Shown here piece by piece: positions 2,806 through 7,145 of a DNA stretch of 33,437 nucleotides (positions are counted from its first letter, which is position 1; every line of letters begins with the position of its first letter). Position numbers and translations under genes: made by a program. The notes below the pieces were generated by a model. That model was not told where the DNA came from, ran no database searches, and was given only the letters and a program-made list of their open reading frames with translations. The stretch lies in IMG/VR virus record IMGVR_UViG_2540341028_000013. One strand, given 5' to 3'. The DNA comes from a virus. Lineage: Duplodnaviria > Heunggongvirae > Uroviricota > Caudoviricetes.

Positions 2806-2877
2806 TGAAGTGGCACACTGAATTTGGCCACCTGAACAGAGGTGATATGCTCACCTCAGAACAACACAGGTGCTCCA

Positions 2878-4046
<1,169 letters not shown>

Positions 4047-4054
4047 CCACTTCA

Positions 4055-4660
4055 AACCGCAAAAAAGCGAACGTCATGCGCCCGGTGGAGTACCAGAACG
4101 GCGAAGCATTCACTATCCGTAACGTACAGGTTATGCCTGAATCCATTCCGGCTGGCTTTAAGGCACTGGCTGACATGAGTCCGTTTGAATCCCTGCTGAT
4201 TGTGGATTTGGGCGGAACCACGCTGGATGTGGCAAAGGTTCAGGGGCAACTGGCAGGTATCAGCCAGGTGTTTTGCGATCCACACGTGGGCGTTTCTCTG
4301 ATGGCCGATGCCGTACTGTCGGTGATGGCCACTAACGGTATGCGCACCAGTCACCACATCGCCAATACCATTATCGAACATCGCCATGATGAAGCCTGGC
4401 TGCGCCAGCACATCCACAATGACGCGCATTACGCCAGCCTGATGGCGGTAATTCGTGAAAAGGAAGAAACACTGAAACAACGCGTGATCCGCGCGCTGGC
4501 GGTTTTTTCGGGTTACGGGCGGGTGATGGTTGTCGGTGGAGGGGCGGAGATTGTGGCACCCGCTATCCGCGAAGCCTGCGGAGTTAATGCGACTTTCATC
4601 GCGGACGGGGTGCCACAGTTTGCTCTGGTTAATGGGCTGTACGCAATGGACAAGGAGTAA
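4055..4660 (+). pseudogene. parM: parM/stbA 3' fragment (actin-like plasmid segregation ATPase), 5' end removed by IS911
   Basis: Translation from the IS911 boundary: TIRNVQVMPESIPAGFKALADM...LLIVDLGGTTLDVAKV...GVSLMADAV...VMVVGGGAEIV matches the C-terminal ~190 aa of plasmid R1 ParM/StbA as recalled; N-terminal ~130 aa absent. Confidence 0.8.
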
Positions 4661-4664
4661 ACCA

Positions 4665-4976
4665 ATGACGACTCCAACCAGACGGATAAGTTTCTATCTG
4701 AAGCCCACCGCCGTCAAGAACGAAGGAGAAGCATGCGCCTGGCTGGACAGCCTTACACCAGAAGCCCGCAAAAGCGGCCAACGCGTGGCTTTTCTGGCCG
4801 GGCTGGCACTTCTGAAAATGAATCCGGCAGAGGCTTATCGACTGGCTGCATGGGCTGGTGATGAAGCGTTATCAGTGACACAAACCAGGACAGAACGCCC
4901 CGCATCACAGCCAGTATCAACCGCACAGATAACCAGTCAGATGGCCGGAAATATCCGGGCGTTATTTCCTGAATAA
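4665..4976 (+). CDS. parR: ParR/StbB-like centromere-binding protein
   Basis: 103 aa from ATG 4665, RBS AAGGAG overlapping the parM stop; RRISFYLKP...LDSL...FLAGLAL...IRALFPE resembles R1 ParR (TIAFKLNP...LDSI...LTAGLAL...LRSLFPKE). Confidence 0.55.
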   Translation: MTTPTRRISFYLKPTAVKNEGEACAWLDSLTPEARKSGQRVAFLAGLALLKMNPAEAYRLAAWAGDEALSVTQTRTERPASQPVSTAQITSQMAGNIRALFPE

Positions 4977-5039
4977 CACAACATCAGGGCGAGTTCGCCC
5001 TGCTCTCCACCTCAGAACATAAACAAGGAGAACGACTTA

Positions 5040-5630
5040 ATGAGCGAAATCAACTATCAGGCATTACGTGAACGTTATTCACCTGTGCCAGTACCGAAAT
5101 GCCCTATTTGCGGCGAGGAAATGTCAATTCAGCGAATATCTGGAGCACAGGTTGTTTATGCCTGCTCCGGTTATGGTGATGATGGAGATTTCAAAATTGG
5201 CCGAACTCTTGCTGACAAACATTATGAAAAATCACGCGTAACAGTGTTGGATGTCGGGGATCCTGAAGTATTGGCGCTACTTGATTGGCTGGAAACCAAA
5301 GACAACCGAATCGCTGAACTGGAAAAAATCGCCACTGACTATGCACTTAAATTCCAGAAAGCACAGGACGCATTAAAGCATGCCGCTTTGCTGCATAGCA
5401 GGACGGCGCAACAAACAAATAATTTTGCAGTATCGCTTCCGGACATAAGCGAATATTTCATTAATGACGTATTTCAGCCCTTGCGATACGAGCGGGATGT
5501 TGAAAGAGCCATCATAAAGGCTGGCGGAAAAGCATTGTGGCAGGAGAAACACGAGGACAGAACGCATCAGTCATGCGATGTAAATTGTGGATGGTTTAGC
5601 CCACTGACGACAGATAAAAATAACACCTGA
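5040..5630 (+). CDS. Hypothetical protein with N-terminal Cys-rich zinc-ribbon-like motif and central coiled coil
   Basis: 196-aa ORF; CPICGEE...YACSGYG motif; coiled-coil segment ALLDWLETKDNRIAELEKIATDYALKFQKAQDALKH; no family recognised. Confidence 0.5.
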   Translation: MSEINYQALRERYSPVPVPKCPICGEEMSIQRISGAQVVYACSGYGDDGDFKIGRTLADKHYEKSRVTVLDVGDPEVLALLDWLETKDNRIAELEKIATDYALKFQKAQDALKHAALLHSRTAQQTNNFAVSLPDISEYFINDVFQPLRYERDVERAIIKAGGKALWQEKHEDRTHQSCDVNCGWFSPLTTDKNNT

Positions 5631-5751
5631 TCCCCCTCAAACCAGGGCGATAATCGCACATCGCCCTGCTGCACATTTGCACAATTTTTTTGAACGAATT
5701 TTTGCCCTTCCAGCCCGCGTGGCGGCTGGATCCGTCAAGGATCCGTGCGTG

Positions 5752-5775
5752 CACAAAAAAACGCGCTTTTTCTGC
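5752..5775 (-). terminator. Putative rho-independent terminator (minus strand)
   Basis: GC stem CGCGC/GCGCG with 7-nt loop; on the minus strand it is followed by a run of 7 T. Approximate coordinates. Confidence 0.3.
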
Positions 5776-6057
5776 GCGCAGGTGACGGGGGAACAGCCCG
5801 CGTTTCAGGGGGTAAATAGCGTTCCCTTAACGATGTCGCAGCGACACGACAGAATGGCCGTATTTCTCACGCTGAGCGTGAAAAATACGTGAGGGATTCT
5901 GATTTGATGGGGTGAAAGGTAAGGCCGTCAAAATCGCACTGAGGCGGCGAGAACATGCAGTCAACGCGGTGGGATTGCGTAAGAGTCTGACCGTCGATGG
6001 TGGCGATAAACTGGAAGGCGTCGTGAAATTATCTGACTGATACAGGAGCTGGAGAGT

Positions 6058-6082
6058 CGGGGCATAAATTTTTTATGCCCCG
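6058..6082. terminator. Perfect palindromic hairpin just downstream of Q (possible bidirectional terminator)
   Basis: CGGGGCATAAA-TTT-TTTATGCCCCG, 11-bp stem; lies 27 bp beyond the Q stop on the minus strand. Confidence 0.4.
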
Positions 6083-6108
6083 GCGAAGCAGCAGACAAGC
6101 GAAGCGCG

Positions 6109-7145
6109 TCAGGATGTGGGCTGGATGTCTAACAGTGCGTAAGGGTTAAAGCGGATCACCTCTTCGCCAAGCCAGTCATTGATGTGCTTCATGGCCTCCA
6201 TGACGGGCATCAGCTCGTTAATTGCGTAAACCCGCGCGGCCTTCTCCACATCACCAAACGCACTTTTTTCACCCGGCATCGCCCCCATCAGTTGCGGCGG
6301 AACGCGGTGCGCAGCCAGCACATCATCACGGGATGCCGCCTTAACATTCATGAACTCATCCTTTGCGGTGATCTGCTGGAACGGCAAAATTTGCACCCCC
6401 TCTTTGCCCCCGTTGGGCGCATGAATGAGCACGTTTTTAAACGCACCACCACCACGCGCACCCTGTAGCGTTTCTTTCAGGGAGTCCATGCTTTCGCGGT
6501 TTACCTGCGCGGCACCGATGTAGATGATGCACCCGGCGTGGGATCCGTTGTCGTAATACAGTTTTCTGAACATGTCCGCCGAATGAGACAGGCTGGCCGA
6601 GAGTAATGCGCCGAGATATTCCGGCATGCCGTAGATTTCCTGGTTAATGTCAGGATTCATCAGGTGACACACTTTGCCTGGGCGAAACTGAAACGCATCC
6701 TTGCCATCCTGCACATACCTCCATGATTCAAGATCGCTTCCGCGTCGCATGTATTTCGCCAGGGCGTGCCGTAATTTAAGCGGTTCGCCGAGCATATTGC
6801 TTCGAAGCTCAAGGAATGCGTTACCGAACACAAACCAGTCCAGCGCCAGCGCCGAGAAATCCTGCCGGGAAAGCAGCGGGTGCGGGATGTAGCAACCGAG
6901 CAATACATTGCGCTTAAAATAAAGCGCAGACTGATGCCAGGACGTTTGCCGGGCAGCTCTTGCCAGACCGTACCAGTCCACCGGGGTTTCATACCACCGC
7001 CCGTTATCAGCACAGTACATATTGTCCAGCAGGTCAGGCGATAAGGACCATCAAATGTGAATGCACTGAGCGATGATTCTTTCCTGAGCGCATCAGCGAG
7101 ATCAATGCGTGAACTCATGCGCACTTTTTTATTTTTTCTGCTCAT
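6109..7145 (-). pseudogene. Q: P2-like portal protein gpQ, frameshifted near 7045
   Basis: Start ATG overlaps the P stop (ATGA). The N-terminal frame (MSRKNKKV...AFTFDGP) then degenerates; the conserved remainder (SLSPDLLDNMYCADNGRWYETPVDWYGLARAAR...HRVPPQLMGAMPGE...) is in another frame. A single missing base in a CC/TT dinucleotide at about 7044-7048 would restore one ORF of about 345 aa. Confidence 0.8.

What the first reader, a model, noticed from the sequence alone, without database searches (positions are those of the whole stretch)
5040..5630. Unassigned 196-aa zinc-ribbon plus coiled-coil protein between the partition remnant and the phage portal gene
It lies in the interval corresponding to the P2 tin/old accessory position and has a CxxC...C Cys cluster plus a coiled coil, but no recognisable family. 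Small proteins in this position in P2-like phages are often exclusion or anti-defence factors. It is followed by two hairpin elements (5752-5775 and 6058-6082).
Basis: inference. Interest (0 to 1): 0.4.

Follow-up and report, generated by a model that had tools for sequence, protein, structure and literature searches.

The report
Ea22-family accessory gene in P2-like prophage
The "unassigned" 196-residue protein belongs to the known but poorly understood phage Ead/Ea22 family; it sits as a swappable one-gene cargo in the variable slot of a decayed P2-like (P88-type) prophage, so it is ordinary and its function remains untested.

Summary
The ORF at 5040-5630 (+) is real. It has an AAGGAG ribosome-binding site and is under purifying selection. 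The claim of "no recognisable family" is wrong: it matches Pfam PF13935 Ead_Ea22 at E=3.6e-32, and near-identical RefSeq proteins are named "ead/Ea22-like family protein".

The window is an IS-truncated, portal-frameshifted P88-type (Xuanwuvirus, P2-like) prophage. The gene fills exactly the variable slot between parR and the conserved segment before portal Q. This is the published gpA-gpQ hotspot. Rousset et al. [quoted passage not shown]

The protein is a three-module mosaic: an N-terminal CCCH zinc module, a coiled coil and a small C-terminal domain. Each module also occurs with other partners in P2-like and lambdoid prophages and, for the N-module, on large plasmids.

It occurs without parMR, so it is not a partition factor. 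It always lies on the gpA strand as the last gene, opposite in orientation to P2 old/tin, and matches no defence model.

Most likely it is an early-operon binding protein like lambda Ea22. Its function is untested. Interest is low.

The parts
5040..5630 (+). Ead/Ea22-like family gene, 196 aa plus stop. It is intact and differs from RefSeq WP_001289966 by one residue (E60K).
   Evidence: (PF13935, E=3.6e-32)
5025..5030 (+). Shine-Dalgarno sequence AAGGAG, 9 nt before the ATG
   Evidence: Read from the sequence
5040..5072 (+). N-terminal leader, aa 1-11 (MSEINYQALRE). It matches lambda Ea22 at 10 of 11 residues and is the family's shared junction motif.
5073..5273 (+). N-terminal zinc module, aa 12-78, with putative CCCH ligands C21, C24, C42 and H61. 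In the 150 best representatives listed (259 with E<=0.001) it sits at the N-terminus.
   Evidence: Zinc binding is inferred, not shown.
5262..5414 (+). Central coiled-coil helix, aa 75-125
   Evidence: AlphaFold2 helix, pLDDT 73-90; heptad register
5421..5543 (+). Small C-terminal domain core, aa 128-168 (FAVSLPDISEYFINDVFQPLRYERDVERAIIKAGGKALW). It is conserved and also occurs joined to other N-modules.
5544..5627 (+). Unconstrained tail, aa 169-196. It is predicted disordered (pLDDT about 40), absent in some orthologues, has dN about equal to dS, and its Cys residues are not conserved.
4985..5002 (.). Hairpin CAGGGCG-AGTT-CGCCCTG between parR and the gene. There is no T-run on the + strand, so read-through from upstream is likely.
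   Evidence: z -2.6
5643..5668 (.). Hairpin CAGGGCGAT-N8-ATCGCCCTG just after the stop codon, with the same arm sequence as the upstream hairpin. It marks the right edge of the cargo slot.
   Evidence: (z -2.8)
4977..5671 (.). Variable cargo slot of P88-type phages. Homology to relatives with other cargo stops at 4976-5028 and resumes at 5670-5672 (5624 in phage Chuche).
4055..4976 (+). Partition remnant. parM lacks its N-terminal part (cut by an IS911-type element ending near 4054). parR (4665-4976) is intact.
5672..6108 (.). Conserved backbone between the slot and the portal gene. It holds TGCACAA repeats (5672-5690), a minus-strand terminator-like site (5761-5779), an inverted repeat (5859-5889) and a hairpin (6058-6082). 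The linear record of phage P88_4B11 breaks at 5702/5703. The cos site was not located.
6109..7145 (-). Portal gene Q, a pseudogene here. A 10-bp deletion near 7032, relative to the intact prophage of strain M19, shifts the frame.

Best explanation
The ORF is a member of the phage Ead/Ea22 family. It is a non-essential accessory gene carried as a one-gene cargo in the gpA-gpQ variable hotspot of a P88-type (Xuanwuvirus, P2-like) prophage. The prophage here is defective.

Shown: the protein is a mosaic of an 11-residue leader, a CCCH zinc module, a coiled coil and a small C-terminal domain. Each module is exchanged independently among P2-like and lambdoid prophages, and the N-module also occurs on large plasmids.

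Inferred: the gene is transcribed as the last gene of the rightward gpA(-parMR) early operon, much as lambda ea22 is a distal gene of the pL early operon. The coiled coil makes an oligomer that presents the two end modules. The protein has no catalytic domain, so it most likely works by binding a host or phage target. By analogy with lambda Ea22, the likeliest effect is a bias of early development, favouring lysogeny or host survival, rather than a defence function expressed in the lysogen.

In this window its upstream operon has been removed by an IS element, so it may no longer be expressed.
For: Family: PF13935 at 112 bits. All 515 homologues that carry a name are called ead/Ea22-like. 125 of 140 diverse proteins carrying the N-module also match PF13935. 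Lambda Ea22 matches the same model and shares the leader.

Architecture: module swapping is visible. This matches the three-part, tetrameric lambda Ea22 described in PMC10834534.

Hotspot cargo: the slot boundaries are. Other cargo occupies the slot in related phages. [quoted passage not shown]

Early-operon reading: in 46 P2-like IMG/VR loci the gene is always on the strand opposite the portal gene. In the 35 loci that reach gpA it is always on the gpA strand. In most of them it is the last gene about 494 nt from the portal 3' end. It overlaps the upstream gene by 4-14 nt in three relatives. No plus-strand terminator and no promoter-like site lie upstream.

Selection: dN/dS is about 0.10 on the three modules, with dS saturated.

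Lambda Ea22 is an early pL-operon gene with a pro-lysogenic effect (PMC7093339, PMC10834534).
Against: No experiment bears on this protein. Similarity to lambda Ea22 itself is limited to the 11-residue leader and the coiled coil. The zinc module and the C-terminal domain are unrelated to lambda's, so lambda's phenotype may not transfer.

The location is a hotspot enriched in defence systems. A 2026 survey predicts antiviral function for 15-32% of unknown P2 hotspot proteins.

Co-transcription is inferred from gene layout only. The structure models are of moderate confidence (pLDDT 66-67) and gave no fold match. About 8 of 46 loci carry a copy truncated after residue ~124, which shows the gene is dispensable.
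Confidence: 0.55

Rival explanations
1. Counter-defence factor. The protein would be made early after infection or induction and use its zinc module or C-terminal domain to bind and neutralise a host immune protein, such as a restriction or abortive-infection component.
For: The gene sits in the early-operon position. Module shuffling is rapid. Plus-strand neighbours in the same slot include a Mom-like protein (below Pfam's cut-off: 22.4 vs 27.1 bits) and a free ClpX zinc-finger protein. There are weak zinc-knuckle resemblances to Lar.
Against: The Lar resemblance fails testing: Pfam gives 13 bits against a cut-off of 28.6, and hhalign against K-12 RalR gives 4.9% probability. No anti-defence literature mentions Ea22. 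A 2026 survey found very few known anti-defence genes in P2-likes.
Confidence: 0.2
2. Anti-phage exclusion or defence gene, expressed from the prophage to block competing phages as P2 old and tin do.
For: It occupies the same gpA-gpQ hotspot as old/tin. Untested unknown genes in such hotspots often prove defensive. Minus-strand cargo in the same slot includes a PADLOC candidate, PDC-M04A.
Against: There is no PADLOC match. Its orientation is opposite to old/tin and it appears translationally coupled to early-operon genes. No promoter-like site lies upstream. It has no enzymatic or membrane effector domain. Relatives sit in lambdoid early-left operons between the recombination genes and int.
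Confidence: 0.15
3. Accessory component of the ParMR partition system, for example a stability or centromere-binding helper.
For: It lies immediately after parR in this window and in most close relatives.
Against: Orthologues occur in P2-like prophages that lack parMR: E. albertii (89% identical) and a second lineage. P88-type phages that keep parMR replace the gene with unrelated cargo. The family's other homes are lambdoid early operons.
Confidence: 0.03
4. In this particular genome the gene is a silent relic, intact by chance inside a decaying prophage and doing nothing.
For: An IS911-type element removes gpA and the start of parM. The portal gene is frameshifted. The copy carries E60K at a position conserved in at least 90% of relatives, next to the putative ligand H61. 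No promoter-like site was found.
Against: The reading frame is complete, with only one substitution relative to the copies in 133 complete E. coli genomes. This rival concerns this copy only and is compatible with the best explanation for the family.
Confidence: 0.4

Closest known systems
Lambda Ea22 (exo-xis region; Pfam PF13935 Ead_Ea22)
   Same: Both match the same Pfam family well above cut-off. They share the N-terminal leader MSEINxQALRE (10 of 11 residues). Both have a leader or N-region, a long central coiled coil and a variable C-terminal domain (PMC10834534). Both sit as non-essential genes near the far end of an early operon.
   Different: This protein carries a 67-residue CCCH zinc module that lambda Ea22 lacks. 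Its C-terminal domain is unrelated to the solved lambda domain (no PDB match). It sits in a P2-like phage next to the portal gene, not between exo and xis. Oligomeric state and phenotype are untested.
Ea22 variants of Stx and lambdoid prophages (for example the O157:H7 early-left operon, some with a DUF551 C-terminal domain)
   Same: The N-terminal zinc module is the same at 82-85% DNA identity. Module exchange follows the same logic. Five of 140 N-module proteins carry DUF551.
   Different: The C-terminal modules differ and the host phage type differs.
P2 Old and Tin (lysogenic-conversion exclusion genes)
   Same: They occupy the same genomic interval between replication gene A and portal gene Q.
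   Different: Old and Tin are on the opposite strand with their own promoter and are expressed in the lysogen. Old is an ATPase-nuclease. There is no sequence or domain similarity.
P2 orf91 (DUF3850), the small gene directly after A
   Same: It has the same strand and the same position as a distal passenger of the early replication operon.
   Different: It belongs to an unrelated family.
Lar/RalR-type restriction-alleviation zinc ribbons (PF14354)
   Same: Both have a CPxCG knuckle followed by a beta strand.
   Different: The match is not significant: 13 bits against a cut-off of 28.6, and hhalign probability 4.9%. The resemblance is that of a generic zinc knuckle.

Membership tests
Pfam PF13935 Ead_Ea22 | Whole-protein score above the curated gathering cut-off (27 bits) | tested here: met
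   112.3 bits, E=3.6e-32, aa 2-140 on model positions 1-134 of 139
Pfam PF13935 Ead_Ea22 | N-terminal leader shared with lambda Ea22 | tested here: met
   MSEINYQALRE versus MSEINSQALRE, 10 of 11 identical
Pfam PF13935 Ead_Ea22 | Long central coiled coil | tested here: met
   AlphaFold2 helix 75-125. Heptad register with 79% hydrophobic a/d positions; 148 of 5000 shuffles reach it.
Lambda ea22 orthologue (functional sense) | Located in the exo-xis region of a lambdoid pL operon | tested here: not met
   It lies between parR and portal Q of a P2-like prophage. Only remote relatives sit in lambdoid operons.
Lambda ea22 orthologue (functional sense) | C-terminal domain homologous to the solved lambda Ea22 domain | tested here: not met
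   No PDB sequence match at E<=10 other than noise. Pairwise BLASTP finds only the leader.
Lambda ea22 orthologue (functional sense) | Tetramer; pro-lysogenic phenotype | not testable with these tools
   Needs SEC-MALS and phage genetics. The literature basis is PMC7093339 and PMC10834534.
P2-hotspot anti-phage system (old/tin type) | Lies in the variable gpA-gpQ interval | tested here: met
   Slot boundaries; hotspot definition; listed in Table S5A
P2-hotspot anti-phage system (old/tin type) | Matches a known or candidate defence model | tested here: not met
   PADLOC gives 0 families at E<=1
P2-hotspot anti-phage system (old/tin type) | Autonomous unit on the strand opposite gpA with its own promoter, as for old/tin | tested here: not met
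   The gene is on the gpA strand in every locus that reaches gpA. It overlaps the upstream gene in relatives. The consensus scan finds no promoter-like site, but that scan is weak evidence.
P2-hotspot anti-phage system (old/tin type) | Protects against phage infection | not testable with these tools
   Needs plaque assays
ParMR partition accessory | Obligate co-occurrence with parMR | tested here: not met
   Present without parMR in L017, L018-L020 and L064. Absent from parMR-bearing phages L005-L008.
Lar_restr_allev (PF14354) | Score above the cut-off (28.6 bits), or profile similarity to RalR | tested here: not met
   13.1 bits, E=0.12; hhalign probability 4.9%
Zinc ribbon (structural class) | Four conserved metal ligands on knuckles or a beta hairpin | tested here: inconclusive

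The most novel reading that the evidence does not exclude
The zinc-module Ead/Ea22 proteins could be a family of modular adaptor inhibitors. A coiled-coil oligomer would carry interchangeable N- and C-terminal target-binding modules, and temperate phages of unrelated types (P2-like, lambdoid, large phage-plasmids) would trade them to neutralise host immune proteins or exclude rival phages. That would give the Ea22 family its first molecular function and explain why it lands in the P2 defence hotspot.
Probability: 0.2. Interest if true: 0.55.

Novelty: already known. Interest (0 to 1): 0.18.

Why it matters
It matters little for discovery. The gene is annotated in RefSeq in hundreds of genomes, and this exact arrangement is already listed in the published survey of the P2 hotspot.

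It does illustrate two modest points. First, the gpA-gpQ hotspot of P88-type phages carries two kinds of cargo in the phages sampled here. One kind is plus-strand extensions of the early operon, built from lambdoid "ea-region" modules. The other is minus-strand autonomous genes, some of which match candidate defence models. Second, the Ead/Ea22 family contains a well-conserved CCCH zinc-module subtype that the Ea22 papers read here do not describe. Anyone studying Ea22 function could use this subtype as a more tractable handle, because it offers conserved ligands to mutate.

Tried and rejected
- **Solved structures.** A PDB sequence search found nothing, so the protein is unrelated to the solved lambda Ea22 C-terminal domain.
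- **Other libraries.** PADLOC and NCBIfam gave nothing. PHROGs gave only families of unknown function.
- **Lar/RalR lead.** Rejected. The Rac zinc-binding protein YdaE showed no similarity.
- **RNA families.** Rfam on 4500-6400 gave no match.
- **cos site.** The best match to the P2 19-mer was 13 of 19, reached by 12% of shuffles. The site was therefore not located. The break in the P88_4B11 record at 5702/5703 may be arbitrary.
- **Locus search with alignment A1.** The single protein was used instead.
- **Literature.** Searches linking Ea22 to defence or counter-defence found nothing relevant.
- **Best DNA hit.** The S. boydii 'plasmid' NZ_CP049283 is riddled with homopolymer indels and is unannotated. 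It was not used for inference.

Full report
**1. The observation**

The ORF at 5040-5630 (+) encodes 196 residues from an ATG. AAGGAG lies at 5025-5030, 9 nt upstream of the start. In an alignment of 140 representatives of 50%-identity clusters, C21 and H61 are invariant and C24 and C42 are at least 90% conserved. The likely metal site is therefore CCCH.

AlphaFold2 predicts a beta hairpin at residues 29-41 and a single long helix at 75-125, with pLDDT up to 90. The helix keeps one heptad register with 79% hydrophobic a/d positions; 148 of 5000 shuffles reach this.

The gene is coding. 515 homologues were found. Against a 66%-identical orthologue, dN/dS is about 0.10 across all three structured parts, although dS is saturated and the ratio is rough. 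Against an 89%-identical E. albertii copy, the last 28 residues evolve at dN about equal to dS. They are predicted disordered and are absent in some orthologues.

**2.

The protein is not unassigned. It scores 112.3 bits (cut-off 27, E=3.6e-32) on Pfam PF13935 Ead_Ea22 over residues 2-140. Every homologue that carries a name is an "ead/Ea22-like family protein". The same gene is annotated this way in complete E. coli genomes.

**3. The host element**

The window is a P88-type (Xuanwuvirus, Peduoviridae, P2-like) prophage. It is defective:
- An IS911-type element ending near 4054 has removed gpA and the start of parM.
- The portal gene has a 10-bp deletion near 7032 that shifts the frame.
- parR (4665-4976) and the terminase gene are intact.

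The ORF differs from the copy in phage P88_4B11 and in E. coli M19 (WP_001289966) by one residue, E60K. That position is at least 90% conserved and lies next to H61.

**4. The slot**

Eight related phages and prophages were aligned to the window. Homology stops at 4976-5028 and resumes at 5670-5672 (5624 in phage Chuche). The interval between holds different cargo in different phages:
- This gene, in P88_4B11 and M19.
- A ClpX-zinc-finger protein plus a 112-residue protein, in P88.
- Seven ORFs including a weak Mom-like match (22.4 bits, below Pfam's 27.1 cut-off), in PhiR44_2.
- A minus-strand DUF4760 protein, in Shae_phiSM and Entero_P88(23).
- A minus-strand DUF3800 protein matching the PADLOC candidate PDC-M04A, in Chuche.

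This is the gpA-gpQ hotspot described by Rousset et al. 2022. They note that about a quarter of P2-likes carry a partition system there (PMC9122126). [quoted passage not shown] The full cassette is present in 133 of 5426 complete E. coli genomes.

**5. The hairpins**

- 5761-5779 is terminator-like on the minus strand but weak as a fold.
- 6058-6082 is an 11-bp perfect stem, 27 nt beyond the portal stop.

Both lie in the backbone shared by all relatives whatever their cargo. They belong to the portal-side backbone (the presumed cos region), not to this gene.

The gene is flanked by two other hairpins with the same arms (CAGGGCGA/TCGCCCTG), at 4985-5002 and 5643-5668. I could not locate cos. 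The P2 19-mer has no significant match. The P88_4B11 record breaks at 5702/5703, which may be arbitrary.

**6. Anatomy of the protein**

Comparing homologues shows independent modules:
- A leader, MSEINYQALRE, 10 of 11 identical to lambda Ea22.
- A zinc module, residues 12-78. Other family members replace it with unrelated N-regions.
- The coiled coil.
- A roughly 40-residue C-terminal core. Other members replace it with DUF551 or other domains, many ending in "GIRIKGE".

A search of 1.84 billion representatives with the zinc module alone found 259 clusters. In the 150 best hits listed, the module sits at residues ~10-95 of proteins of 42-363 residues. 125 of 140 of these also match PF13935. 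The module is therefore a subtype of this family and is not seen as a free-standing domain elsewhere.

No solved structure, predicted viral structure or PDB fold matches it. A weak resemblance to Lar/RalR fails testing.

**7. Context survey**

- An 89%-identical copy in E. albertii follows gpA, a ClpX-zinc-finger gene and a 174-residue gene, with no parMR.
- A 66%-identical copy in another P2-like lineage follows gpA and a DUF7446 gene and precedes ogr and the portal gene, again with no parMR.

Among 80 IMG/VR loci, 46 are P2-like. In all 46 the gene is on the strand opposite the portal gene. In the 35 that reach gpA it is on the gpA strand. In most it is the last gene, about 494 nt from the portal 3' end. 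The remaining, more distant matches are mostly to the coiled coil alone. Where marker genes identify the context, they sit in lambdoid early-left operons (cIII-kil-gam-bet-exo-orf60a/63/61...int), the canonical ea22 position. Many of these loci matched no marker.

The N-module also occurs on ~100-110 kb E. coli plasmids.

In three relatives the gene overlaps the upstream gene by 4-14 nt. In this window no promoter-like site and no plus-strand terminator lie upstream. P2 old and tin lie on the opposite strand with their own mapped promoter.

**8. Most likely mechanism**

Shown: family membership, modular architecture, hotspot cargo status, purifying selection, and independence from parMR.

Inferred: the gene is the distal passenger of the rightward early operon, much as lambda ea22 is of pL. 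The coiled coil oligomerises; lambda Ea22 is a tetramer (PMC10834534). With no catalytic domain, the protein would act by binding a target through its end modules. Lambda Ea22 favours lysogeny and host survival (PMC7093339), but its partner is unknown, and two-hybrid screens found none. I rate this reading at about 0.55.

Counter-defence (0.2) and lysogen-expressed exclusion (0.15) remain open. A partition role is effectively excluded. Separately, this particular copy may be silent, because its operon has been cut off (0.4; compatible with the above).

**9. Novelty and verdict**

The family, the hotspot and this very arrangement are already in databases and in a published table. The finding is ordinary. 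The only mildly new points are the conserved CCCH subtype of Ea22 and the strand dichotomy of cargo in this slot. The dichotomy rests on a handful of loci. Interest is about 0.18.

Noticed in passing
window 5672-5700: Direct repeats of TGCACAA mark the right border of the cargo slot. Relatives have three copies (TGCACAATAGTGCACAAATTTGCACAATTTTTTT). This window has lost one through a 12-bp deletion. They may be a protein-binding array in the presumed cos region or a leftward promoter region.
   Followed up: partly
window 6109-7145 (-): The portal gene is a pseudogene. A 10-bp deletion near 7032, relative to the intact M19 prophage, splits it into 303- and 161-residue frames.
   Followed up: yes
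window 2842-4054: An IS911-type IS3-family element abuts the prophage, and further IS elements lie to its left. Together they delete gpA, the early genes and the start of parM. Pile-ups like this are typical of Shigella genomes (from general knowledge).
   Followed up: partly
L003:3486-3818 (phage P88 gp19); also L017:4084-4419: A free-standing ClpX C4 zinc-finger protein of 110 aa (PF06689, E=8e-18) is recurrent plus-strand cargo in the same slot, often just upstream of the Ead/Ea22 gene. It could be a decoy for ClpX N-domain-dependent substrate or adaptor binding.
   Followed up: no
L013:4274-4798; L004:3475-3999; L008:3612-4136: A 174-residue protein of no known family begins MVINYKQLRE, which resembles the Ea22 leader. 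It occupies either the position just before the Ead/Ea22 gene or a second small insertion site next to the portal gene (window ~6112-6134).
   Followed up: partly
L004, L003 and homologues P0047, P0077, P0093, P0097: Several plus-strand cargo proteins of the P2-like slot end in '...GIRIKGE', as many lambdoid early-left accessory proteins do. This suggests a conserved gene-boundary sequence used for module exchange between phage types.
   Followed up: no
L007:1665-2471 (-), L008:1509-2888 (-), L005:1524-2042 (-): Minus-strand cargo in the same slot includes a DUF3800 protein matching the PADLOC candidate PDC-M04A (E=2.6e-35), and DUF4760 proteins, in L008 paired with a membrane protein that weakly resembles Csx27. 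Plus-strand cargo has no PADLOC match.
   Followed up: partly
L045-L051, L063, L012 (E. coli O121): A recurrent variant truncates the Ead/Ea22 gene after residue ~124 and carries a minus-strand 176-residue ORF of no known family in place of the 3' half.
   Followed up: partly
window 5912-6040 (+): A 42-residue ORF in the conserved backbone is annotated as a hypothetical protein in P88, P88_4B11 and PhiR44_2. Whether it is a real gene is unknown.
   Followed up: no
window 5859-5889: A near-perfect inverted repeat with 15-nt arms (93% complementary, 1-nt loop) lies in the conserved segment between the slot and the portal gene. Its function is unknown.
   Followed up: no
L001 (NZ_CP049283.1, S. 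boydii 'plasmid'): The closest public match to the window is an unannotated 26.8-kb linear record full of single-base homopolymer indels. It is probably an uncorrected long-read assembly and not a true plasmid sequence.
   Followed up: partly
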